This document shows, one piece after another, positions 6,522 to 56,348 of a DNA stretch of 59,843 nt. The position numbers and the translations under genes are program-made. The DNA is from a bacterium (lineage in GTDB: Bacteria > Patescibacteriota > Minisyncoccia > UBA6257 > GWB1-50-10): contig JAUSKB010000016.1 of assembly GCA_030647415.1 (NCBI GenBank), forward strand, positions 1-59,843, written 5' to 3'. Each line of letters opens with the position of its first letter. Position 1 is the stretch's first letter. Under the pieces are notes generated by a model. It was not told the origin of the DNA, searched no databases, and saw nothing but the letters and a program-made list of their open reading frames with translations.

Positions 6522-7223
6522 CTACCCTTCCTCTATCGACCGCTCGAGCGCACGGAAGAGCGAGAGGGATTTCCGGTAATCCATGCGTTTCGGCCCCACA
6601 GCGATAAGGAGGAATTCACCGGCGGGACCGGCGAGCCGGTCGGCGACCACCGCGAGGTGCCCGCTCGTCGTGAAGGGACTCTCACCGATGAACACCTGCG
6701 GCCACTCGTCTGTCGTTTCCCACCGGTCCCGGCACGCGGCAATTCGGTCCGGCAGTTCCTCAAAATCCCGGACGACCTCAAGGAGGTCGCGCTTCTCCGG
6801 AAGCTCGAGGTGCGTGAGAAGGCTCCCTAAGCCGCTCTCGTACATCGCGCCATGGTCCGTCTCGTAGCCAATGCCCAGGAGGTCGAGGTAGCCCGCGACC
6901 TCGTCCACAAACGACTGCGGGTTACCGCTCGAGAACTCGCCAAGAAACGCCGCGGCACGGCGCGGCACGGTGTCCGCGTCGCCCCGCGAAACGAGCTCGC
7001 GAACAAAGAACCGGTATGCTTTGTCGGTGGGCAATCGGCCGCCCGACGGGTGCATCTGGCGGAGGTAGCCACTGTCAGCAAGTTCCTGCAGCTCCCAGCG
7101 GATCATGGCCGGCTTGATGCCAAAATCGAACGACTCGTAGAGACGCTCGGATGTCACCGGAAGCCCTTCAGCGATGAATCGCGCAACCGATGAAAAAAGG
7201 ATGTTCCGTGTCCGGTCTGTCAT
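6522..7223 (-). CDS. hrcA: heat-inducible transcription repressor HrcA (short form)
   Basis: Winged-helix N-terminus (ILFSSVARFIAEGLPVTSERL...) and the motif GYLRQMHPSGGRLPTDKAYRFF. First gene of hrcA-grpE-dnaK-dnaJ, with a CIRCE-like site upstream. Confidence 0.8.
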   Translation of the reverse strand: MTDRTRNILFSSVARFIAEGLPVTSERLYESFDFGIKPAMIRWELQELADSGYLRQMHPSGGRLPTDKAYRFFVRELVSRGDADTVPRRAAAFLGEFSSGNPQSFVDEVAGYLDLLGIGYETDHGAMYESGLGSLLTHLELPEKRDLLEVVRDFEELPDRIAACRDRWETTDEWPQVFIGESPFTTSGHLAVVADRLAGPAGEFLLIAVGPKRMDYRKSLSLFRALERSIEEG

Positions 7224-7235
7224 AGCTATTCCTTA

Positions 7236-7269
7236 GGCGAAACCTCTGTGGGTTACCGGAGGTTTCGCC
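7236..7269. repeat. hairpin family B, copy B1 (ggcgaaacctc/gaggtttcgcc)
   Basis: Perfect 11-bp stem ggcgaaacctc...gaggtttcgcc. The same arms recur at 27153, 27400, 50584 and 52892. Confidence 0.85.
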
Positions 7270-7280
7270 TCATGATAAGA

Positions 7281-15534: not shown

Positions 15535-15608
15535 GATACTAATATACGAATTCATTCGAATGATACGAATAGTACTAATGCACCCCTATTCGTATCATAT
15601 ATTTTATC
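15535..15608. repeat. palindrome family C, copy C2 (right arm truncated)
   Basis: gatactaatatacgaattcattcgaatgatacgaatagtactaatg ... ctattcgtatcatat. It fills the gap between the lysS start and the greA stop. Confidence 0.8.
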
Positions 15609-21897: not shown

Positions 21898-22046
21898 GGA
21901 GTAATCGCGAATAATGCTAATTTAACTCAAATAATGCGAATAAATGCGCTCTATTCGCATTATTACCTCTACAATTCGCATTATTAGCGATTACTCTCTT
22001 CATTCGCATTATTATATCTGCAATTCGCATTATTAGCGATTACTCC
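21898..22046. repeat. 149-bp complex palindrome family C-prime, copy 2
   Basis: Same organisation and orientation as 20505-20653, and roughly 80 percent identical by eye. It abuts the proS ATG. Confidence 0.85.
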
Positions 22047-26574: not shown

Positions 26575-27123
26575 TTACTCTCTAATCTCCCCTTCCTTCT
26601 TCTCGACCAGCGAGTCAATGAGCTTGTTCGCCGTATCCACCGCCTCCTGGATCTGGTCCTTGAACATGAACTTCCGATCCTCAGGCACCTCGCCATCGGA
26701 GAATCCCTGCTGGACCGACTTATTCGCCTCATCGCGCGCGTGCCGGATCTGGATGCGGTGGTCCTCCGCGAGCCGTTTCGTGTGCTTCACAAGCTCCTCG
26801 CGCCGCTCCTCGGAAAGTTCCGGGAGCCGCACCCGGACGGTAAGCCCATCCGCGGTCGCGCTCACATGGAGTGAGGAGGTTTCGATCGCCTTTATGATGC
26901 CCGGTATCGCTTCTTTATCCCACGCTTGGATGACGATGTCCCGCGGCGGCATGACGCCAACGGAGGCAACCTGCTTCAGGGGCAGGAGCTCCCCGTAGTA
27001 CATGACCCTCAGGTCCTCCACCAGCCCCGGCGAGGGCCGCCCCGTGCGGATTCCGGCAAACTCCTTCGTGAGACTGTCAGTGATGGGCTTCAGTGCGGCT
27101 CGAAAATTTTCGATGCTAAACAT
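26575..27123 (-). CDS. frr: ribosome recycling factor
   Basis: 182 aa; ...EFAGIRTGRPSPGLVEDLRVMYYGELLPLKQVASV... Confidence 0.93.
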   Translation of the reverse strand: MFSIENFRAALKPITDSLTKEFAGIRTGRPSPGLVEDLRVMYYGELLPLKQVASVGVMPPRDIVIQAWDKEAIPGIIKAIETSSLHVSATADGLTVRVRLPELSEERREELVKHTKRLAEDHRIQIRHARDEANKSVQQGFSDGEVPEDRKFMFKDQIQEAVDTANKLIDSLVEKKEGEIRE

Positions 27124-27152
27124 GTGTGTTTATATTACTTCATCCGAGCCCT

Positions 27153-27190
27153 CAAGGCGAAACCTCAGAATTCCCCGAGGTTTCGCCTTG
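27153..27190. repeat. hairpin family B, copy B2 (contains the holB stop codon in its loop)
   Basis: caaggcgaaacctc-agaattcccc-gaggtttcgccttg, a 14-bp perfect stem. Confidence 0.88.
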
Positions 27191-28019
27191 GGAGCCGCCC
27201 CAAACGCTCCCGGATTGCCCGCTCCTGAAGCACCGGATTCACATTGAACCGGCGGACCAGCTCGAGCCGTTCCGCAAGCCACGCAAGTCTGCCCGGCTGG
27301 CCCGCCCGACCGGACGACTGCGGTCGTTCGGGCAGGTACCCCCGAAATCCGTTCGCGTGCGCCTCGACGAGCATCCGCTCGATCTCGGCGCCAGGATCTC
27401 GAGGCGAAACCTCGGAATCTCCTAGAGGTTTCGCCTCCGGCTTCGACAGCTCGAGCGCACAACCGATGCTTCCGAACGACCGCGCGGCGATGCGGGAAGC
27501 TGCCGCGGGTGAACAGCTACGATGCTGAAGTAAAAATCGCTCCACATGAGCCGCAGGTAGCCGCGGCACGTACACGACGGAAAGCCGTGAACGGAGCGGC
27601 GGAGTGAGTAGGTCTGCCTGGCTCGTCACGACAAGGAGCAGCGCATGTGGCGGTGGTTCCTCGACAATCTTCAAGAGCGCGCCCTGCGCCTCGGGGGTGA
27701 GCGCCTCGGCACCGTCGATGACCACAGTCCGGCGCGGAGACCGAAACGGCGTCTGCCAGAGGAACCTACGGATGTCACGGATAGCATCGATACCAATCGT
27801 CCTATTTTCTCCTGGTGCGGTCGTTGTGATATCCATGAGCGCTGCCGCACCGAACTCGAAGCTACCACACTCAAGGTACGCGGCAAACGATGCCGCGAAT
27901 GTTGCCTTCCCGATACCGCGGTCGCCGACAAAACAGTAGGCGTGCGTTAGCGTGCCCTCCCGCGAGAGGCGGGCGAATATCGCAGTAAGTTTATCGTACC
28001 CTACTAGAGTGGATGACAT
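27165..28019 (-). CDS. holB: DNA polymerase III delta-prime subunit (clamp-loader AAA+)
   Basis: HAYCFVGDRGIGKATFA P-loop, VVIDGAEALTPEAQGALLKIVEEPP. The C-terminus runs through two B hairpins. Confidence 0.8.
   Translation of the reverse strand: MSSTLVGYDKLTAIFARLSREGTLTHAYCFVGDRGIGKATFAASFAAYLECGSFEFGAAALMDITTTAPGENRTIGIDAIRDIRRFLWQTPFRSPRRTVVIDGAEALTPEAQGALLKIVEEPPPHALLLVVTSQADLLTPPLRSRLSVVYVPRLPAAHVERFLLQHRSCSPAAASRIAARSFGSIGCALELSKPEAKPLGDSEVSPRDPGAEIERMLVEAHANGFRGYLPERPQSSGRAGQPGRLAWLAERLELVRRFNVNPVLQERAIRERLGRLPRRNLGEF
27400..27436. repeat. hairpin family B, copy B3 (in-frame inside holB)
   Basis: gaggcgaaacctc...gaggtttcgcctc; translated as EAKPLGDSEVSPR. Confidence 0.85.
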
Positions 28020-33791: not shown

Positions 33792-33894
33792 CATTTCCTC
33801 AAACGGTGCAACTTGTCATTCCAGACGGCCGTCTGAAATGACAAGTTATTGCAGGGACGCAATTTAGAAAGTTTTTGGTGTTTCCGCCGTGGGA

Positions 33895-48506: not shown

Positions 48507-49928
48507 TTATTCTTCTCCCGTCTCCACCTTGATGGAGAGTTCGTGAAGCTGAGTAAGCGTTGCCTCCGAAGGTGCGTCCATCACCGCAATCTGGCCGCTC
48601 GAGGTCGCCGGAAAGGCCATCACCTCGCGGATACTCGATTCTCCCAGGAGCACCATCATGAGCCGGTCGATGCCTGGCGCGATGCCGCCGTGGGGCGGGA
48701 CGCCGTGGCGGAACGCCGTAAGCATGTGGTCGAACTGCGCTTTTTGTGTCGCGTTGAAGCCGATGAGGTCAAATACTTTCTCCTGCACCTCCGGGCGGTG
48801 GATACGGATGCTTCCCCCGCCGACCTCGTAGCCGTTCAGGACCATGTCGTGCTGGAGGCCGCGGACCTTCGTGGGATCGGTATCGAGAAGTGGTACGTCG
48901 TCGGGGTGCGGCGCCGTGAACATGTGGTGCGACGGGGCGAACTTCGCCGCCCCCGAGCCATGAAAGAAATCCTCCTTCGACTGCTCGGTGAAGAGCGGAA
49001 AATCAATGGTCCAGGAAAATGCGAGCTCGTTCGGGTCTTTTTTGTCCTTCCGAAGGTCCGGTTTGTCCGTACCGTACGTCGCTACCGCCTCCGTATGGGA
49101 GAGCCGCGGCCACGGCTTCTTCGTGATGTGCTTCTCGGGGAAGATGGATTCGGCGAGCTTCGTGAACAGGTCTTCGGCGAGCCGGAGAATATCCTCCTGC
49201 GTCACGAACGACATCTCGAGGTCGAGCTGGGTGAACTCCCCGTACGCCCGGTCCGCGCGTGGGTCCTCGTCGCGGAAACAGCGCGCAATCTGGAAGTACC
49301 GCTCGAATCCCGCAACCATGAGGAGCTGTTTGTACTGCTGGGGCGACTGTGGGAGGGCATAAAACTTGCCGGGCTGGAGGCGGGAGGGCACGAGGAAATC
49401 GCGCGCGCCCTCGGGTGTGGTCTTCGTAAGAATGGGCGTCTCTATCTCGGTGAATCCCTCGTTCGAGAGATACTCCCGGATGAACCGGACCGCCGCATGC
49501 CGAAGCTTCAGGTTTTTCTGCATCCGCGGCCGGCGGAGGTCAAGGTAGCGGTACTTGAGGCGAAGCTGCTCGTCCACATCGTGGCCGTCGGTGTCGAGCG
49601 GGAAGGGCGGGGTTTTCGCCTCATTCAAAACCTCGATCGCGGTGACCGAAACCTCGTACGCGCCGTTCGGGAGATTCGGATTCTCCATGCCCGCCGGGCG
49701 TTTCTTCACCATACCGGTGAGCCGCACCACCCACTCGCTCCGGAGCGTCTGGCCCACCTCATGCGCCGCGACCTCCTTGGGCGTGAAGACAACCTGCGCG
49801 ATGCCGCTTCGGTCCCGGAGGTCTATAAAAACAAGCTTCCCGTGGTCGCGCCGGACATCCACCCATCCCTCGAGCGTGACCTGCTCGCTCTCATGGGCGC
49901 CGATGTCCTTTGTGAGGGTTCGTTTCAT
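48507..49928 (-). CDS. aspS: aspartyl-tRNA synthetase (short, no GAD insertion)
   Basis: OB domain (VTLEGWVDVRRDHGKLVFIDLRDRSG) and class II motifs (FRDEDPRADRAYGEFTQLDLEMSF; GGIAPGIDRL). The likely start is MKRTLTKD at 49928. Confidence 0.93.
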   Translation of the reverse strand: MKRTLTKDIGAHESEQVTLEGWVDVRRDHGKLVFIDLRDRSGIAQVVFTPKEVAAHEVGQTLRSEWVVRLTGMVKKRPAGMENPNLPNGAYEVSVTAIEVLNEAKTPPFPLDTDGHDVDEQLRLKYRYLDLRRPRMQKNLKLRHAAVRFIREYLSNEGFTEIETPILTKTTPEGARDFLVPSRLQPGKFYALPQSPQQYKQLLMVAGFERYFQIARCFRDEDPRADRAYGEFTQLDLEMSFVTQEDILRLAEDLFTKLAESIFPEKHITKKPWPRLSHTEAVATYGTDKPDLRKDKKDPNELAFSWTIDFPLFTEQSKEDFFHGSGAAKFAPSHHMFTAPHPDDVPLLDTDPTKVRGLQHDMVLNGYEVGGGSIRIHRPEVQEKVFDLIGFNATQKAQFDHMLTAFRHGVPPHGGIAPGIDRLMMVLLGESSIREVMAFPATSSGQIAVMDAPSEATLTQLHELSIKVETGEE

Positions 49929-50046
49929 TCCTTCATAGTAATATCGGAGACGTCCGACGTCCAATGGACATCGGGCGTCCGAATATTAGGTTCCATGAGT
50001 TTCTGACCACAACAAAAAAGGAGCGGTTTCCCGCTCCTTGCAACCA

Positions 50047-50283
50047 TCATCTTTGTAAAATCTCGACTTCCGGATACCTTGCGGGATCGAATCCGCGGAG
50101 CTTGATCTCCTTGAGGATTAAATCATTCACAAAAGAAGTGAAACTGTTATTTTTCGTCTTAAGGTTCTGCTGGCTAACAAAAATTTTCACATATTGCGAC
50201 AGGTTCTTAGGGAGAAAAATGGTGGTCCTTTTCTTCTCTCCATACAACATGAACACTTCCGCTTCCGGTCTGCCCCTTTTCAT
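50047..50283 (-). CDS. small ribbon-helix-helix-like protein (cassette gene)
   Basis: The ATG at 50281-50283 is preceded by GGAGG. MKRGRPEAEVFMLYGEKKRTTIFLPKNLSQYVKIF... has a beta-strand then helices, typical of CopG/RHH. Low GC. Confidence 0.45.
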   Translation of the reverse strand: MKRGRPEAEVFMLYGEKKRTTIFLPKNLSQYVKIFVSQQNLKTKNNSFTSFVNDLILKEIKLRGFDPARYPEVEILQR

Positions 50284-50420
50284 ATTTTCCTCCATTGTTA
50301 ATGTCCCATTGAAAAATGTATTTTATTGTTATCACTCTTTTATTCTCGTGTCAACCATGTTTTATTACAACATATTCGAATTTACAGAGGCGAAGCCTCT
50401 GTGTGCAAGCCTCTGTGTGC

Positions 50421-50519
50421 AACGAGTTTGCCGTGGTCGCGGCGGACATCCACCCAGCCCTCGAGCGTTATGGTCTGACCTTCGTGCGCGGTGATGTCTT
50501 TCGCGAGGGTGCGTTCCAT
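50421..50519 (-). pseudogene. orphan copy of the aspS 5' end
   Basis: Encodes MERTLAKDITAHEGQTITLEGWVDVRRDHGKLV, compared with aspS MKRTLTKDIGAHESEQVTLEGWVDVRRDHGKLV. The 89-bp DNA match is 50431-50519 against 49840-49928. Confidence 0.85.
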
Positions 50520-50583
50520 ATACAAACACATACTACCACGGCGTCGCCGAATGTAAAAAAGGGTCAGGAGCCTCGGATTCACA

Positions 50584-50618
50584 AGGCGAGACCTTAAAAG
50601 AATCCCAAGGTCTCGCCT
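50584..50618. repeat. hairpin family B, copy B4
   Basis: aggcgagacctt-aaaagaatccc-aaggtctcgcct, downstream of the 50644 stop. Confidence 0.85.
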
Positions 50619-50643
50619 CGGGGAACCGGGTTCCTAATCTTTC

Positions 50644-51522
50644 TTAACGCGCGGTGAAAACCTGCAACCCCAACCCGCCCAACCGCACCTCAATTGTCCC
50701 CCGCTCGTCCGTGCGAAAAATGGCGGCGCCCGCGGCGCGGAGCCGCGCGAGCGTTTCGGACGTCGGGTGGCCGTAGCTATTCTTCCCGACTTCAATGACG
50801 GCGACCGCGGGGCGGAGCGCGCGGAGAAACTCTTCTGATGAGGAAAACTTCGACCCGTGGTGGCCGACTTTCAGAATATCCACGGGACTTACGCCCGCGC
50901 GGACGAGTGTCCGCTCGACCGGCGCCCCAGCGTCGCCGGTGAAGAGGGCGGAAACGCCGCCGCTCTCGACGCGCGCGACGAGCGTCGTATCGTTCAGGTC
51001 ATCCGAGCGAAGCAGGTCTGGCGTCGGCGAAAGTATGCGAACCGTACCGCCGCTCGTCCGAATACGGTCGCCCGCTCCGAGCTCGACCATACGGATGCCA
51101 CGCTCCTCGATGACCCGGATGAGCTCGCGGTACGCATCGGTATCCCGCGACCGCCCCGAAGAGAGGAAGGCGCCGACATCATACTGCCGGAGTACCTCGA
51201 TAAGCCCGCCAAAGTGGTCCTCTTGCGGATGGGTCATGAGCACCAGGTCGATATAGCGGTCGGTCGGGGCGAGCGCGCGTCCCAGTTCCCGGAGCACCGC
51301 GCCGGTCGGCGGCCCGCCGTCAATGAGGAGCTGTACGCCGCCGGCCTGCCCGCCTCCGGCGGGGAATTCCACGAGTTCGCTATCCCCCTGCCCCACGTCG
51401 AGAAAGAGAAATCTCGTTTCGGCGGATGACGCAAGCACTCCCCGCCACACAACGATATCGAGCGCGAGGAGGGCGAGCGCGAGTATGAGGATTTTTTCTT
51501 TATGTTTCTCAAGTATGCGCAT
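50644..51522 (-). CDS. ComEC-type metallo-beta-lactamase domain protein (separate ORF)
   Basis: FLDVGQGDSELVEF, LVLMTHPQEDHFGGL, KVGHHGS. It overlaps the upstream comEC channel ORF by 14 nt. Confidence 0.85.
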   Translation of the reverse strand: MRILEKHKEKILILALALLALDIVVWRGVLASSAETRFLFLDVGQGDSELVEFPAGGGQAGGVQLLIDGGPPTGAVLRELGRALAPTDRYIDLVLMTHPQEDHFGGLIEVLRQYDVGAFLSSGRSRDTDAYRELIRVIEERGIRMVELGAGDRIRTSGGTVRILSPTPDLLRSDDLNDTTLVARVESGGVSALFTGDAGAPVERTLVRAGVSPVDILKVGHHGSKFSSSEEFLRALRPAVAVIEVGKNSYGHPTSETLARLRAAGAAIFRTDERGTIEVRLGGLGLQVFTAR

Positions 51523-53098
51523 TTTTGAGATGGGTTCTCGTCATCCAGACCACGAATCCGATAAGCACGGCATAGTACGCGAACGCGCCAGCCCACGAAA
51601 TGGCGGGGGCGACGGGCACGGAAATCAAGCTGAATAGCCGGATAACGCCCAACTCATACTGCGTGAGCGCCCATGCGACGAGACCGACGACTTGCGCAAG
51701 GAGAATCGACGCGGCACCGACTGCGGCGGTTAAGAACCCCACACCCATTGTAATCGGCACCGCGGCAAGGATGAGCAGGTTCGCCGCGAGCGAGGTCACA
51801 GACACCATCCCAAACTGCGCAATCAAGATGGGTGCAACCGCGAGCTGGGCTGCGGCAGTCGTGGATAGTGTGGTACGCCAGTCGAGGAAACCTTTGTTCC
51901 CCCGGGACGCCGTAAATCGCCGGAGCACGGGCTCAAGGTAGACGATGCCGAGAAGGGCGACGAAGGAGAGCTGGAACCCCACGTCGAACGCGAGCACCTT
52001 CGGGTTCACGAGAACCATCGCGAGGCCGGCGAGGACGACGGCCTGCCGAACGTCGAAGAGTCGTCCAGTCTCCTTCGCGGCGAGGGCGAGTGACCCCATG
52101 ATTGCGGCTCGAACCACCGATGCCTCCGCCCCTGCCATACACACAAACCCGAGTATCACCGCAAGCGTGACGAGGAACGCTGCTCGACGCCGTCGAGATA
52201 TGAGCCAGAGCGCCGCACCCATGACCGCCTCGCCAAGAATGGTGATGTTATACCCGGAGAGCGCGACAAGGTGCGTCGTGCCGGAGCGCTGCATGGAGTT
52301 CTTTAGCTCATCCGAAAACGCACCGCGCTCCCCCACCGTGAGGCCGGAGAGAAACGAGGCGTCCTCCGCCGGCAGGACGCGCGCGAAGACGCCGGTCACC
52401 GCATGCTTCAGGGAGAAGAGCGCGGACTGAATCGGCGAGCCCTGCCCACGCGCGACGACGGTAACCGTCGGCCGGTTCATCACGCCCGACACACGCTCCT
52501 TCGCAAGGTACCGGGCGTACCCCTCGGGCTCCGGTTGCTTCACGACGCCGGCGAGTGAAACCTCGTCCCCGTACCGGACCGCCGGGTACGGCGGGAGGTT
52601 CGCGATGACCCGCCCGACCGGACGCCAGCCCGACAAAGCCGTTCTGGCGGGGTCGTTCGGGCGGGCCCGCCCTGCTGCGGCTCCGTGAGCTGGCGGATCG
52701 AGCCGGATGAATGCTGAACGGTACCCATCCCGAAGCACCGGATCATTCACCACAACGCCGCGCAACGTCTGGGTTCCCAGTGACACCGCAGAGGCACGGA
52801 ATCGCATGTCGTCGAAGTGGTAGTACACCGACCCCGCGATGATGAGCGGCGCGAGCGCCGCAAGCACAAAGCACCGGCGTCGCATCGCGCCCCAAGGCGA
52901 GACCTCAAGAATCCCCGAGGTCTCGCCTTGGGGCGCGAGTACTGAAATGAAACGTGGCGCAAAGAATCCAACAATAAGCAACACCGCGGCGAGCGCGGCG
53001 ACTATAAGAAGCACCTGATAGGTCAACCCAAGACTCGCGAGGAGGACCCCGAGGAGGAATGTGAGCGCTCCGTAGAACAGCACGCTCGGTGCAGGCAC
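51509..53098 (-). CDS. comEC: DNA internalisation competence protein ComEC/Rec2, channel part
   Basis: N-terminal OB/DUF4131-like region and a polytopic competence domain (...SGTTHLVALSGYNITIL...). It contains in-frame hairpin B5. Confidence 0.85.
   Translation of the reverse strand: MPAPSVLFYGALTFLLGVLLASLGLTYQVLLIVAALAAVLLIVGFFAPRFISVLAPQGETSGILEVSPWGAMRRRCFVLAALAPLIIAGSVYYHFDDMRFRASAVSLGTQTLRGVVVNDPVLRDGYRSAFIRLDPPAHGAAAGRARPNDPARTALSGWRPVGRVIANLPPYPAVRYGDEVSLAGVVKQPEPEGYARYLAKERVSGVMNRPTVTVVARGQGSPIQSALFSLKHAVTGVFARVLPAEDASFLSGLTVGERGAFSDELKNSMQRSGTTHLVALSGYNITILGEAVMGAALWLISRRRRAAFLVTLAVILGFVCMAGAEASVVRAAIMGSLALAAKETGRLFDVRQAVVLAGLAMVLVNPKVLAFDVGFQLSFVALLGIVYLEPVLRRFTASRGNKGFLDWRTTLSTTAAAQLAVAPILIAQFGMVSVTSLAANLLILAAVPITMGVGFLTAAVGAASILLAQVVGLVAWALTQYELGVIRLFSLISVPVAPAISWAGAFAYYAVLIGFVVWMTRTHLKNAHT
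52892..52931. repeat. hairpin family B, copy B5 (in-frame inside comEC)
   Basis: ccaaggcgagacctc-aagaatcccc-gaggtctcgccttgg, a 15-bp perfect stem translated as QGETSGILEVSPW. Confidence 0.88.
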
Positions 53099-53160
53099 TA
53101 TTTAGTTATAGCACAACTATATCTCCGAACGGATCCAGATTAATCGCGCAACAACTTTAC

Positions 53161-53475
53161 TTATTTGTTTGCTACAAGTCTGTGGAGCTTGCGAGATAAT
53201 ATACATGCCGCCAACTCGGGAATAACACTCATCATAAGTTGCTTTGTTTCATCGTCAAAATTGTCCCAATAATCAACAATCTTATCCAACTCTGCGGGTT
53301 TCTGCCATATTTCTCCACTCTCATTGCTGTATTTTTTTTCAATCAAACAGAAAATTCGGTGGGCAACAACCACCACGTCTTCATGAATCCCATCGACGGA
53401 AATGAATTCTCTTACCACCCCCTCCGCCCTATTGGATCCCTCCGGCCCGGGCTGGTAGCCAGGTTCGCTTTTCAT
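53161..53475 (-). CDS. hypothetical protein
   Basis: 104-aa ORF, AT-richer than its neighbours. No family was recognised. Confidence 0.4.
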   Translation of the reverse strand: MKSEPGYQPGPEGSNRAEGVVREFISVDGIHEDVVVVAHRIFCLIEKKYSNESGEIWQKPAELDKIVDYWDNFDDETKQLMMSVIPELAACILSRKLHRLVANK

Positions 53476-53547
53476 ATCCCCATCCTACCCCCCCCGCAGG
53501 GGCGTCAAGCCCGCACGGCGGGTTGTCCACAACTATGCAGCACATGA

Positions 53548-53886
53548 TTATTGCGACGAAAAGGCGCGTGCCGCGAGGGCGAACTGGTCAAAGTACTTCT
53601 GGATTCCCGCGAGCGAGCTCCCGTACAAGCGTCCCCCGTACACGGCATCGCAGAACACCTCGCGCGCACGGGCAATCTCCCACCGCCTTCCCGCCCACCG
53701 AGGGTCCGCGAGCGTCAAGTCAAAGAGATCGAGCGCGCGGTCGACGGCGCCACGGAAACGCGCCTCGTCCCGCTCCTGCCACCGGGCGGCGCGGGAAACC
53801 TCGCTGCCGATATTCCCCAGTTGGGATTTGAGCGAGAGCGCATACCACGCGCCGCCCGCGAGTTCAGCGTGTAACGGGCGCATCAT
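53548..53886 (-). CDS. hypothetical helical protein, downstream partner of a 2-gene module
   Basis: 112 aa. The start overlaps the upstream stop (ATGA at 53883-53886). No family was recognised. Confidence 0.5.
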   Translation of the reverse strand: MMRPLHAELAGGAWYALSLKSQLGNIGSEVSRAARWQERDEARFRGAVDRALDLFDLTLADPRWAGRRWEIARAREVFCDAVYGGRLYGSSLAGIQKYFDQFALAARAFSSQ

Positions 53887-54230
53887 GAAAGAATGAGTCG
53901 CTCGATGACCGCGAGAATCTTCCCGCGAATTTCAGCGTTCTCAACACCTCGGGACCGGTTACCGAGCGAGGGCTTCAAGTTAATCATGGAATCGAACTCA
54001 ACCCAATCCTCCTCCTGCTGGGGATACAGGTTTATTCCCCAGGTGTCTTCCCGCACCGACCCCGCCTCCTCGGTCAGCAACACCTCTTCGTCCGCGTGGA
54101 GCTCGCCGCCGACTGCCATGATGCCCTGCCGCACGTCTACGACCACTTTCACCACATCACCGAACTCTTCGGAGGCAATTTCTGCAAGCTCCGATCGTGT
54201 GATGGGTGTTCGAATGATTCGAATGGCCAT
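53883..54230 (-). CDS. small conserved protein (recalls the DUF5674-type sequence pattern)
   Basis: MAIRIIRTPITRSELAEIA...GGELHADEE...TWGINLYP...FDSMINLKPSLGNRSRGVENAEIR. The family assignment is from memory and needs an HMM check. Confidence 0.5.
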   Translation of the reverse strand: MAIRIIRTPITRSELAEIASEEFGDVVKVVVDVRQGIMAVGGELHADEEVLLTEEAGSVREDTWGINLYPQQEEDWVEFDSMINLKPSLGNRSRGVENAEIRGKILAVIERLILS

Positions 54231-54409
54231 TGCGATACAAGTGTAGCTTGAATCTACTCATATCGCCACCGCGCTGGGTACCGCTACACAATCACCCCCC
54301 TACCGTCGCTCGTATTCACTCGCTCCCACAACACCCCCGGTTTTGTGTCCGCTTCACTCATTCCAACTCGGTCCGACCTAGGTCGAACCGATCCCCTTTA
54401 GCGGCGTGG

Positions 54410-55783
54410 TCATGTGATAATGCCCCCGCCGAGCATTTCCCCGTCCTCGGAATACCAGACCGCGGACTGGCCGGGGGCGATGAATTTGACAGGAGCAGTA
54501 AAAAGTAAGCAGTAATTGTCCCGACTTTGTCGTGGACTCACGACTCTGTCGGAGGTAATAGGTAATGAACTCCCAGTTACCTCTTGCGTATTACTTATTA
54601 CCAGCTCTCCCCTCACCAACGGCTGCCGGTACCGCACCCGGGCGAGGACGGACATGCTAACATTCTGCAGAATGTTAGCATGTTGCAGCGTGTCATTGCC
54701 ATCGCTTGGCAAATCCGTCATTCTAACATTCTTAAGAATGTTAGAATGACTTCCGTTGATAAAATTTACATTTGCAAGCGTCACCTCCGTGCGGAAGAGC
54801 GCGGGATTGTCAGTGCCCTCGGCGACCATGACGACATTCTTCTCCACATCGATTGCCGAGATGTAGTATGGCGGCGTTTCTGCGTTTCCTTTTTCTTTTG
54901 TCTTTTTTCCTAAGTTGAGCCCATGCCGCTGCCCGATGGTGTACAGATGCGTGCCGCGGTGCTCCCCTACTTTAGTACCATTAGTCGCAATGACGTCCCC
55001 CGGACGGTCAGGGATGTGCCTCGCGACGAAGTCGGCGAGCGCGACGTCGCCCAGGAAGCAGATGCCCTGCGAGTCTTTTTTGTCTGCCGTAGGCAGACCA
55101 GCTTTCCGCGCGATGTCCCGTACTTCGGATTTCAGGAGGTCGCCGACAGGGAAGAGCGCGTGCGCGAGCTGTTTCTGCGTGAGCGTCCACAGGAAATAGC
55201 TCTGATCTTTGTTCTTATCCTTCGCCTCAAATAACGAAAAAGAGGGTGCGGCACCGCGCTTTTGTGAGGGGTAAGACTTGGGCGTCGCCCCGGAGACACC
55301 CCGAACGGAAGCGCGGTGCCGCACCCGTGCATAATGCCCCGTCGCCACATACTCCGCCCCGAGCGAGAGCGCCTTTTCCATGAACAGCCCGAACTTTATT
55401 TCGCGATTACAGACCACGTCCGGATTCGGCGTGATGCCGCGCCGGTACCCGTCAATGAGGTACTCCACCACACGCTGCCGGTACTCCTCCTCGAAGTCGA
55501 ACACGTAGAACGGGATGCCGAGGTGGTTCGCGACGCGCCGCGCGTCCTCCGCGTCTTTTTCCGATGGGCACTCGCCAGCCACGCCGAGCTCGTCAAGCCG
55601 CGCCTGGCTCCAGCACTTTAAGTACACCCCCGTCACGTCGTAGCCCCTAAACCCCTCCGGGGTCGGGCGACCAAACAATTTTTCGAAATTGTTTGGTGTA
55701 GCCCGCTTGAGCAACAACGCCGCAACGGAGCTATCTACCCCGCCCGACATACCTACGAACACTTTTTGTCGTTTGATTGACAT
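54410..55783 (-). CDS. mnmA: tRNA 2-thiouridine(34) synthase MnmA, about 95 aa longer than usual
   Basis: PP-loop VFVGMSGGVDSSVAALLL, DKNKDQSYFLW, and the C-terminal FIAPGQSAVWY. The extra length maps to palindromic DNA inserts. Confidence 0.9.
   Translation of the reverse strand: MSIKRQKVFVGMSGGVDSSVAALLLKRATPNNFEKLFGRPTPEGFRGYDVTGVYLKCWSQARLDELGVAGECPSEKDAEDARRVANHLGIPFYVFDFEEEYRQRVVEYLIDGYRRGITPNPDVVCNREIKFGLFMEKALSLGAEYVATGHYARVRHRASVRGVSGATPKSYPSQKRGAAPSFSLFEAKDKNKDQSYFLWTLTQKQLAHALFPVGDLLKSEVRDIARKAGLPTADKKDSQGICFLGDVALADFVARHIPDRPGDVIATNGTKVGEHRGTHLYTIGQRHGLNLGKKTKEKGNAETPPYYISAIDVEKNVVMVAEGTDNPALFRTEVTLANVNFINGSHSNILKNVRMTDLPSDGNDTLQHANILQNVSMSVLARVRYRQPLVRGELVISNTQEVTGSSLPITSDRVVSPRQSRDNYCLLFTAPVKFIAPGQSAVWYSEDGEMLGGGIIT
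54497..54602. repeat. word-type (taat/ggta) palindromic insert inside mnmA
   Basis: agtaaaaagtaagcagtaattg ... ggtaataggtaatgaactcccagttacctcttgcgtattacttattacc. The same vocabulary occurs in intergenic spacers at 6437-6522, 29172-29272 and 38810-38886. Confidence 0.7.
54654..54749. repeat. two perfect AT-rich palindromes inside mnmA (28 bp and 32 bp)
   Basis: atgctaacattctgcagaatgttagcat (54654-54681) and tcattctaacattcttaagaatgttagaatga (54718-54749). The 96-bp block equals 32 codons. Confidence 0.9.
55243..55325. repeat. GC-rich inverted-repeat insert inside mnmA
   Basis: Perfect 18-bp arms gggtgcggcaccgcgctt / aagcgcggtgccgcaccc, separated by 47 nt. Confidence 0.85.
55670..55697. repeat. 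12-bp-stem hairpin insert inside mnmA
   Basis: accaaacaattt-ttcg-aaattgtttggt; translated as TPNNFEKLFG between the PP-loop and the next conserved block. Confidence 0.8.
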
Positions 55784-56306: not shown

Positions 56307-56348
56307 CGAATATACCATAATCGACGGCCGTCGATTATGGTATATTCG
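56307..56348. repeat. 42-bp perfect palindrome between convergent genes
   Basis: cgaatataccataatcgacgg|ccgtcgattatggtatattcg. Confidence 0.9.

What the first reader, a model, noticed from the sequence alone, without database searches (positions are those of the whole stretch)
52892..52931. Family B hairpin (15-bp perfect stem) translated inside comEC
ccaaggcgagacctc-aagaatcccc-gaggtctcgccttgg encodes QGETSGILEVSPW in the N-terminal region of ComEC.

The same arms and loop consensus occur in several other places: intergenically at 7236-7269 and 50584-50618, at the holB stop (27153-27190) and inside holB (27400-27436).

Between copies, A/G in one arm is matched by T/C in the other (gaaacctc/gaggtttc versus gagacctc/gaggtctc). 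This is compensatory change that preserves pairing.
Basis: seen in the sequence. Interest (0 to 1): 0.72.

Follow-up and report, generated by a model that had tools for sequence, protein, structure and literature searches.

The report
Mobile REP-doublet hairpin inside comEC
The hairpin is one copy of a small selfish palindromic DNA repeat (a REP doublet, or REPIN, the kind associated with RAYT tyrosine transposases) that sits in frame in a floppy loop of the ComEC gene of a candidate-phyla-radiation bacterium. The kind is known, but this hairpin type and its frequent residence inside essential genes of these tiny genomes were not found described in the searches run here.

Summary
**Observation: confirmed.**
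- 52885-52938 is a perfect 22-bp stem with a 10-nt loop, longer than the 15 bp reported.
- It lies in frame in a 529-aa ComEC ORF on the minus strand.
- Four more copies exist at the stated places; shuffles give none.

**What it is.** The unit is a small hairpin: a variable stem of about 4-8 bp, then GAGG-CGARA-CCTC, then the complementary stem. It occurs alone or as inverted doublets, so this is a REP/REPIN family.
- In public contigs fetched by the hairpin alone, the units bracket a Y1 HUH transposase gene. That gene hits Pfam Y1_Tnp, has the class-2 Y---NP motif, and its model's best fold match is the E. coli REP-associated transposase 4ER8.
- The reciprocal search, starting from the transposase, finds GARG-N5-CYTC hairpins at fixed positions around and inside the gene.
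- That transposase clade is mostly from CPR bacteria.
- No transposase gene is in the window.

**The ComEC peptide** is not conserved and lies in a low-confidence loop between two transmembrane helices.
- About half of the family doublets lie in long open frames, in all three frames, including ValRS, SecA, UvrD and LigA.

**The A/G-T/C "compensation"** is real covariation. However, that base lies in the loop of the single unit, and both arms are copies of one unit. It therefore does not prove selection on the long stem.

**Verdict:** new member of a known kind, moderate interest.

The parts
52885..52938 (.). REPIN (inverted REP doublet): perfect 22-bp stem and 10-nt loop, 54 nt = 18 codons. 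It is in frame in comEC and encodes about residues 54-72 (LAPQGETSGILEVSPWGA).
   Evidence: about 51-54 nt extra compared with L030; model pLDDT below 50 at residues 55-65
51509..53098 (-). comEC ORF (529 aa; orthologues are usually 480-490 aa) that hosts the REPIN in the loop between the second and third N-terminal helices
27148..27195 (.). REPIN overlapping the 3' end of holB. It supplies the last ~9 codons and the TGA stop (27165-27167).
27401..27437 (.). REPIN in frame inside holB, in the variable linker (EAKPLGDSEVSPR). The sister genome L153 keeps the same copy with a 15-nt in-frame central deletion.
27165..28019 (-). holB (DNA polymerase III delta'), 284 aa against about 254-257 aa in most CPR orthologues
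50574..50628 (.). REPIN (arms GGCGAGACCTT/AAGGTCTCGCC) 16 nt downstream of the stop of the metallo-beta-lactamase-fold gene 50644-51522. The sister genome has an ordinary terminator-like hairpin there.
7230..7275 (.). More divergent REPIN between two minus-strand genes. Its 3' foot lies 7 nt before the ATG of ORF 6522-7223.
50384..50402 (.). Solo REP-like unit with a variant loop (minus strand acaGAGGCTTCGCCTCtgt), at the edge of an inserted small-gene module

Best explanation
The hairpin is a REPIN: two inverted copies of a short REP unit. The unit is a variable stem, then GAGG, then the pentaloop CGARA, then CCTC, then the complementary stem.

**Proposed mechanism**
- *Shown:* this REP class goes with a RAYT-like Y1 HUH tyrosine transposase clade that is mostly found in CPR bacteria.
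- *Inferred, by analogy with E. coli TnpA-REP and IS200/IS605:* the transposase binds the folded hairpin in single-stranded DNA, cuts and rejoins it, and so spreads REP units and doublets in trans around the genome.
- *Inferred:* copies persist where they do no harm. That means downstream of genes, and in frame in variable loops of proteins.
- *Shown:* the core has no stop codon in any frame on either strand.

**The comEC copy**
- *Shown:* it added 18 codons to a variable, poorly modelled loop between two N-terminal transmembrane helices. The frame is kept.
- *Inferred:* it is translated through.

Any role of the 3'-end copies as RNA hairpins (transcript end or stability) is possible but secondary and untested.
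For: **1. Unit and doublets**
- About 1.03 Mb of public loci were fetched only by the hairpin pattern. They hold 98 inverted doublets and 37 solo units with the same 13-nt core.
- The outer stem differs between genomes but stays complementary. The covariation score is 0.281 against 0.149 in shuffles (0 of 500 reach it), and slid controls give 0.05-0.15.

**2. Transposase link, from the hairpin**
- A Y1_Tnp gene lies in 12 of those loci, several of them duplicate records. It hits Pfam PF01797 at 32.8 bits (cut-off 23) and carries the motifs HFH and YIHLNP.
- REP units bracket it within 14-176 bp of both ends in L001, L007, L046, L050, L121, L188 and L223, and on the one end present in the truncated L099.
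- L223 (Saccharibacteria) has the same cccc/gggg stem as the window copies.

**3. Transposase link, from the protein**
The best 80 are nearly all CPR.
- 21 of those 80 carry GA[AG]G-N5-C[CT]TC hairpins with at least 3 extra stem pairs: 52 units against 0.1 in shuffles.
- The hairpins sit at stereotyped positions: upstream, inside at about aa 55-63 and aa 153-165, and downstream.

**4. Fold**
- The transposase model has pLDDT 85. Its best PDB match is 4ER8, the REP-associated tyrosine transposase bound to a REP hairpin (E 5e-7). That is ahead of IS608 and ISDra2 TnpA.

**5. Insertion polymorphism**
- The comEC peptide is absent from 39 orthologues. L030 lacks about 51-54 nt at that spot.
- L153 has the holB copy with a 15-nt in-frame deletion.

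**6. Nucleotide-level, not peptide-level, element**
- 44 doublets lie in open frames of at least 150 aa. They use all three frames (16/17/11) and both strands.
- Hosts include ValRS (two), SecA, UvrD (two) and LigA.

**7. Tolerated site**
- The ComEC model has pLDDT 87.8. One of its two segments below 50 (55-65, 140-142) is residues 55-65, a coil between helices 28-54 and 68-82.
Against: - No RAYT gene is in the 59.8-kb window, and the rest of this genome could not be reached. The link to a transposase is therefore by family, not by this genome.
- Only 3 of 80 RAYT-selected loci carry the exact CGARA-loop core. The specific pairing of this REP subtype with its transposase rests on about 8 loci.
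- The proteins score below the NCBIfam REP_Tyr_transpos cut-off (44 and 37 bits against 80).
- The hairpins lack the GT[AG]G foot of canonical REPs.
- No transposition, cleavage or translation was observed; all are inferred.
- Three of five window copies lie just 3' of a gene's coding end. That also fits an RNA-level role.
Confidence: 0.85

Rival explanations
1. The hairpins are primarily host cis-acting RNA elements, acting as transcript 3'-end, stability or translational-control hairpins. They would be kept for that function rather than spread as selfish DNA.
For: - Three of five window copies lie at or just after the coding end of a minus-strand gene, and all five fold strongly as RNA.
- At 50622-50604 the small hairpin followed by ATTCTTTT scores as terminator-like.
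- In the sister genome an ordinary terminator-like hairpin occupies the same spot.
- REPs are known to be mostly downstream of ORFs and are thought to act as RNA (PMC3733652).
Against: - About half of the family doublets lie inside long open frames, in any frame and on either strand.
- Most copies have no T tract.
- No Rfam family is matched.
- The units bracket and invade a Y1 transposase gene.
- The two readings are not exclusive: REPs can be both.
Confidence: 0.08
2. The elements are mobile, but something other than the RAYT-like enzyme moves them. They might be a TIR-type MITE of a DDE transposon, or palindromes made locally by template switching.
For: - No transposase gene is in the window.
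- Most RAYT-selected loci (59 of 80) show no hairpin of this class under the strict criterion used.
- A different palindrome family occupies the same sites in the sister genome. This could point to a site-driven process.
Against: - No direct target-site duplications were seen beside the five window copies (inspection of the flanks; not tested systematically).
- Complementarity runs beyond the conserved core instead of ending in TIRs.
- The association with Y1_Tnp holds in both search directions, far above chance.
Confidence: 0.05
3. The inserted peptide is a selected, functional addition to ComEC, so conservation is at the protein level.
For: - The frame is kept through 54 nt.
- The same peptide words (GETS...EVSP) recur in other proteins.
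Against: - The peptide is absent from orthologues, and the closest one has an unrelated palindrome-encoded peptide at the same spot.
- The recurring words are simply the three translations of one DNA core, used about equally.
- The segment is modelled as a low-confidence coil.
Confidence: 0.02
4. It is a chance palindrome or an assembly artefact.
For: - Some hits of the loose pattern in unrelated GC-rich or A/T-flanked contexts look like ordinary terminators that match by chance.
Against: - No shuffle of 100 gives any match in the window, against 4 observed.
- The copies share loop and flanks.
- The same family is found in more than 150 public contigs from independent assemblies.
- The holB copy is shared with an independently assembled sister genome.
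Confidence: 0.005

Closest known systems
REP / REPIN - RAYT (TnpA-REP) systems of Proteobacteria (E. coli REP/BIME and REPtron; Pseudomonas REPINs)
   Same: - Short hairpin units occur singly and as inverted doublets that form a long hairpin.
- They are dispersed in many copies.
- The units flank a Y1 HUH transposase gene with the class-2 Y---NP motif.
- The transposase model's best fold match is 4ER8.
- Each transposase lineage has its own hairpin subtype (PMC6006769, PMC3116915).
   Different: - There is no GT[AG]G (or CGTC) foot. The conserved part is the apical 4 bp, and within a subtype the pentaloop; the foot varies between genomes.
- The protein scores below the NCBIfam equivalog cut-off.
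- The hosts are about 1-Mb CPR genomes, whereas class-2 genes were reported to favour large genomes (PMC6006769).
- About half of the doublets are intragenic.
Intragenic REPs and Rickettsia palindromic elements (RPE)
   Same: - Palindromic repeats are inserted in frame in known proteins, often replication and repair proteins.
- They sit in tolerant loops or at protein ends (PMC3733652). Here the hosts are holB, comEC, UvrD, LigA, ValRS and SecA.
   Different: - The sequence family and host phylum are different.
- The intragenic share seen here appears large, but it was not compared quantitatively with the share in those families.
REP insertions inside tnpA-REP genes (subclass 2.4 of Quentin et al. 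2018)
   Same: REP units lie inside the transposase ORF without breaking the frame (PMC6006769).
   Different: [quoted passage not shown]
- Here they lie at two fixed sites: about 12-20 residues before HuH, and after the Y motif.
- They are found in either orientation and in different frames.
IS200/IS605 insertion sequences and their non-autonomous derivatives (PATEs)
   Same: A Y1 HUH enzyme recognises subterminal DNA hairpins, and the fold is related.
   Different: - The transposase has the class-2 Y---NP motif rather than Y----Q.
- The hairpin is a dispersed 20-55-nt unit, not the two ends of a gene-carrying element.
Intrinsic terminators
   Same: A GC-rich hairpin lies just after a gene at three of the five sites.
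   Different: - Most copies have no T tract.
- Copies also lie inside coding sequence.
- The core sequence is shared across phyla.

Membership tests
REP/REPIN-RAYT | Short palindromic unit (about 20-40 nt) present in many dispersed copies, far above chance | tested here: met
   - The window has 5 doublets and 1 solo-like unit in 59.8 kb, with 0 expected.
- Fetched loci hold multiple copies per contig.
- The genome-wide count for this organism was not obtainable.
REP/REPIN-RAYT | Units paired in inverted orientation at short distance, forming a larger hairpin (REPIN) | tested here: met
   - All exact arms in the window are paired.
- There are 98 doublets against 37 solo units in the fetched loci.
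- Four window copies share an asymmetric spacer, so the doublet behaves as the unit copied.
REP/REPIN-RAYT | A Y1 HUH transposase gene of the RAYT type, flanked by the same units (REPtron) | tested here: inconclusive
   - Met for the family: the units flank the gene in L001, L007, L046, L050, L099, L121, L188 and L223, and the reciprocal test agrees.
- Not met in the window itself. The rest of the genome was unavailable.
REP/REPIN-RAYT | Transposase has the HuH motif and the class-2 Y---NP motif, with a RAYT-like fold | tested here: met
   - HFH and YIHLNP are invariant in alignment A6.
- Pfam Y1_Tnp is above its cut-off.
- The best PDB fold match is 4ER8.
- NCBIfam REP_Tyr_transpos is only 37-44 bits against a cut-off of 80.
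REP/REPIN-RAYT | Conserved GT[AG]G (or CGTC) tetranucleotide at the foot of the hairpin | tested here: not met
   - No conserved foot was found. Only weak T(-2) and C(-1) preferences appear next to the GAGG core.
- Atypical REPs without this foot are already accepted for subclass 2.6 and class 3 (PMC6006769).
REP/REPIN-RAYT | Extragenic location | tested here: not met
   - Two of five window copies are inside coding sequence and one overlaps a stop codon.
- 51 of 101 family doublets lie in open frames of at least 120 aa, against 81% of random positions.
- Intragenic REPs are a known exception (PMC3733652).
REP/REPIN-RAYT | The transposase binds and cleaves the hairpin as single-stranded DNA | not testable with these tools
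   This needs biochemistry.
Rfam structured RNA families | Match at or above a family's gathering score | tested here: not met
   - No match in the whole window.
- Around the comEC copy there are only sub-threshold generic-hairpin matches.
Intrinsic terminator | GC-rich stem followed at once by a T run, downstream of a gene | tested here: not met
   - No T run follows the long hairpin in any copy.
- Only the inner small hairpin of the 50574-50628 copy scores as terminator-like.

The most novel reading that the evidence does not exclude
The GARG-N5-CYTC hairpins and their CPR-dominated RAYT clade may form a pan-CPR system that inserts into pre-existing hairpins or palindromes.

**What this would explain**
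- Different palindrome families would replace one another at the same sites.
- At two of three comparable sites the sister genome carries an unrelated AT-rich palindrome exactly where the window has a REPIN.
- At the holB site the window keeps a remnant of that other element beside the REPIN.

**Consequences if true**
- The system would be a regular source of lineage-specific peptide insertions in essential CPR proteins.
- The hairpins kept at two fixed sites inside the transposase gene would act as an autoregulatory handle.
Probability: 0.15. Interest if true: 0.6.

Novelty: new member of a known kind. Interest (0 to 1): 0.4.

Why it matters
CPR (Patescibacteria) genomes are about 1 Mb, streamlined, and thought to be poor in mobile DNA.

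**What this finding shows**
- A REPIN family with a cognate RAYT-like clade is widespread in these genomes.
- Copies sit in frame in essential genes: holB, comEC, ValRS, SecA, UvrD and LigA.

**Why that is useful**
- It gives a concrete source for some of the unexplained lineage-specific insertions in CPR proteins.
- It is a caution for annotation and for alignment-based phylogeny of these proteins.
- It adds a hairpin type to REP biology in which the conserved part is apical rather than at the foot. This makes a clear prediction about how the enzyme reads its substrate.

The finding does not change what is known about how such elements work.

Tried and rejected
- **Known RNA family.** Rfam at gathering thresholds over the whole window, and at E-value thresholds around the comEC copy, gave nothing meaningful. 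No tRNA or tmRNA is present.
- **Ribozyme, attC, boxB, CRISPR repeat, DNA uptake sequence.** I compared these with the core from memory. None fits: there is no CUGAUGA, no R''/R' boxes and no arrays, and the arms occur almost only as hairpins.
- **Literature search for the core sequence.** It returned only primer coincidences. Searching CPR terms together with RAYT/REPIN returned, among the 15 top-ranked papers shown, none that contain RAYT or REPIN.
- **Wrong ORF call, with ComEC starting at Met72 after the hairpin.** Rejected. The two helices upstream are conserved with orthologues, are in frame, and are modelled with pLDDT 82-97 (residues 1-50).
- **Sequence search of the transposase against PDB.** The single sequence and the profile both gave nothing significant. 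Only the fold search linked it to 4ER8.
- **Exact CGARA core next to RAYT-selected loci.** It was found in only 3 of 80. This forced a generalisation to GARG-N5-CYTC with lineage-specific loops.
- **Finding the window's own genome in the public collections.** The exact-pattern scans did not return it, so no genome-wide count or cognate transposase could be obtained.
- **Scan with CCCRAGGCGARACCTYGGG.** Most hits in GC-rich genomes are single and look like chance. Only the CPR hits were informative.
Full report
**1. Observation**

The quoted sequence is present. The inverted repeat is larger than reported. Its arms are 52885-52906 and 52917-52938, 22 nt each and 100% complementary, with a 10-nt loop. 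On the coding strand it folds as RNA at -57.1 kcal/mol (z = -10.2). As DNA it folds at about -33 kcal/mol.

The repeat lies in the minus-strand ORF 51509-53098 (529 aa). This ORF hits Pfam Competence at 5.6e-45 and DUF4131 weakly. It reads LAPQGETSGILEVSPWGA through the hairpin.

A fifth copy with one changed base per arm is at 50574-50628.
- 7230-7275 is intergenic.
- 50574-50628 lies 16 nt after the stop of the metallo-beta-lactamase-fold gene.
- 27148-27195 contains the holB stop codon and supplies its last residues, RLPRRNLGEF*.
- 27401-27437 is inside holB and reads EAKPLGDSEVSPR.

**2. Organism and orthologues**

ComEC and holB homologues are all from Patescibacteria (CPR). The named ones are closest to Jorgensenbacteria and Paceibacterota. 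The nearest relative is at 72-73% identity and comes from a groundwater metagenome.

In an alignment of 40 ComEC proteins the peptide is unique to the window. It sits in a loop of variable length between the second and third N-terminal helices. The contig of a 55%-identical orthologue (L030) lacks about 51-54 nt there.

A ComEC model (pLDDT 87.8, pTM 0.86) has one of its two segments below pLDDT 50 at residues 55-65. This is a coil between helices 28-54 and 68-82. The two upstream helices are conserved and in frame. An alternative start at Met72 is therefore unlikely.

In holB, the sister contig L153 has the same internal copy but with a 15-nt central deletion that keeps the frame.

**3. What the unit is**

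Most hits share more than the searched bases. GA precedes the first arm and TC follows the second arm. The flanks and the loop form further complementary segments. The repeated unit is therefore a small hairpin:
- a variable stem of about 4-8 bp,
- then GAGG,
- then the pentaloop CGAAA or CGAGA,
- then CCTC,
- then the complementary stem.

In about 1.03 Mb of fetched DNA there are 98 inverted doublets and 37 solo units. The outer stem differs between genomes (tggtc, tacc, cccc, tata, tttcg and others) and covaries. The covariation score is 0.281 against 0.149 in shuffles (0 of 500 reach it), and slid controls give 0.05-0.15. No conserved foot tetranucleotide exists.

**4. Link to a transposase**

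*From the hairpin.* Next to hairpin clusters in L050 and L007 lies a 224-238-aa ORF with the motifs ...MPNHFHFLL... and ...RYIHLNP.... It hits Pfam Y1_Tnp at 32.8 bits (cut-off 23). It hits NCBIfam REP_Tyr_transpos at 37-44 bits, below that model's cut-off of 80.

A tblastn search finds homologues in 12 hairpin-selected loci, and none in the window. REP units bracket the gene within 14-176 bp on both sides in L001, L007, L046, L050, L121, L188 and L223. L099 is cut by the contig end and shows them on one side. In five loci there is also an in-frame unit at about residues 57-68. The Saccharibacteria locus L223 has ccccGAGGTTTCGCCTCgggg, the same stem as the window copies.

The best 80 are nearly all CPR, with some Omnitrophota and a few others.

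Only 3 of those 80 have the exact CGARA core. However, 21 of 80 carry GA[AG]G-N5-C[CT]TC hairpins with at least 3 further stem pairs. That is 52 units against 0.1 in shuffles. Each lineage has its own loop and outer stem. The hairpins sit at stereotyped positions: 40-100 bp upstream, inside at about residues 55-63 and 153-165, and just downstream.

*From the fold.* The transposase model (pLDDT 85.3) best matches 4ER8, the E. coli REP-associated tyrosine transposase bound to a REP hairpin (E 5e-7, TM 0.65 on the target). This is ahead of IS608 and ISDra2 TnpA.

The Y---NP signature is that of class 2 (TnpA-REP) in the classification of Quentin et al. (PMC6006769).

**5. Genic copies**

Of 101 family-like doublets, 51 lie in open frames of at least 120 aa with 15 codons to spare on each side. 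For random positions in the same loci the figure is 81%. With a 150-aa threshold and duplicates removed, 44 remain. They use the three frames 16, 17 and 11 times, on either strand.

The core has no stop codon in any frame. Its translations (EAKP, GETS, RRNL, EVSP, GFAS, RFRL) recur for that reason. Hosts checked include two ValRS, SecA, two UvrD-type helicases and NAD-dependent DNA ligase. Conservation is therefore at the DNA level, and the insertions are tolerated rather than selected as peptides.

Intragenic REPs, often in replication and repair genes, and REPs inside tnpA-REP genes have both been described before (PMC3733652, PMC6006769).

**6. The "compensatory change"**

The A/G position is the fourth base of the pentaloop of the single unit. 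Both variants occur as solo units in several genomes. A doublet is two inverted copies of one unit, so its arms match without any compensatory event.

The search pattern allowed mixed arms. Only one distinct mixed doublet was found among about 140 (L094/L137). This shows that the arms are kept alike. It does not show why.

**7. Mechanism**

*Shown:*
- the anatomy of units and doublets;
- the two-way association with a RAYT-like Y1 enzyme;
- insertion polymorphism;
- frame-neutral residence in variable protein loops.

*Inferred from E. coli TnpA-REP and IS200/IS605:*
- the enzyme recognises the folded hairpin in single-stranded DNA, then cleaves and rejoins it;
- it acts in trans on REPINs;
- disruptive insertions are removed by purifying selection.

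*Untested:*
- translation through the hairpin;
- any RNA-level effect of the copies at gene 3' ends. One inner hairpin followed by ATTCTTTT scores as terminator-like.

**8. Limits**

The window has no transposase gene, and I could not reach the rest of the genome. The pairing of this exact REP subtype with its enzyme rests on about eight loci.

**9. Verdict**

The feature is a new member of the REP/REPIN-RAYT kind. It has an apically conserved hairpin, is spread through CPR genomes, and is often found inside genes. Interest is moderate.

Noticed in passing
L028:4464-4495; L153:~1535-1640; window 27100-27147: At two sites where the window has a REPIN, the sister genome carries an unrelated AT-rich palindrome of the TACGAAT/ACATTCT type. 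The sites are the comEC loop and the holB 3' end. At the holB site the window keeps a stretch (TCGGATGAAGTAATATA) homologous to the right end of that other element, just beside its REPIN. Either the same permissive sites are hit repeatedly, or one palindrome family inserts into or replaces another.
   Followed up: partly
window 54652-54683 and 54717-54750 (inside mnmA, ORF 54410-55783, minus strand); also 15560-15598, 21930-21964, 56307-56348: Perfect AT-rich palindromes of that second family lie in frame in the C-terminal part of mnmA. The Pfam tRNA_Me_trans_C match is interrupted there. The sister genome has ACAA-rich low-complexity filler at the same place.
   Followed up: partly
RAYT genes in L001, L007, L046, L050, L099, L236, L264, L265, L270, L271, L279 and others: REP hairpins sit in frame at two fixed places inside the transposase gene itself, about residues 55-68 (before HuH) and 153-165. 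They occur in either orientation and in different frames, so the same protein position reads EAKP, EVSP, GFAS, GLAS or GETS in different homologues. The first site coincides with the low-pLDDT segment of the model.
   Followed up: partly
window 49923-50560: A module has been inserted between the beta-lactamase-fold gene and the Asp/Asn-tRNA synthetase gene. It holds a diverged duplicate of the synthetase 5' end (about 50516-50418, MERTLAKDIT...). Then come a direct repeat GCACACAGAGGCTT x2 and a solo REP-like unit (50384-50402). Last are an AT-rich promoter-like stretch and an 82-aa ORF (50047-50295) with its own terminator. A homologous small ORF is present in L028 but absent from L030.
   Followed up: partly
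window 53099-54409: About 1.3 kb holding three small minus-strand ORFs, one of them DUF5674 (53883-54230), lies between comEC and mnmA. In the sister contig L028 these two genes are 20 nt apart.
   Followed up: no
window 33810-33847; L028:2569-2588: A palindrome containing TTCAGACGGCCGTCTGAA includes the 10-mer GCCGTCTGAA, which I recognise from memory as the Neisseria DNA uptake sequence (not checked with a tool). A similar TTTCAGACGGCCGT occurs in the sister contig. This is probably coincidence or a terminator.
   Followed up: no
window 27295-27330 (holB) and comEC residues ~131-160: holB of the window and of L153 share a 12-aa insert (LPERPQSSGRAG) that other CPR holB proteins lack. ComEC has a second low-confidence Ala/Pro/Arg-rich stretch, with pLDDT 58-73 for residues 131-160.
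   Followed up: no
window 7223-7235: The 3' foot of the intergenic copy at 7230-7275 overlaps an AAGGA Shine-Dalgarno-like sequence (7231-7235) a few nt before the ATG of ORF 6522-7223. Folding of the hairpin could therefore mask that ribosome-binding site.
   Followed up: no
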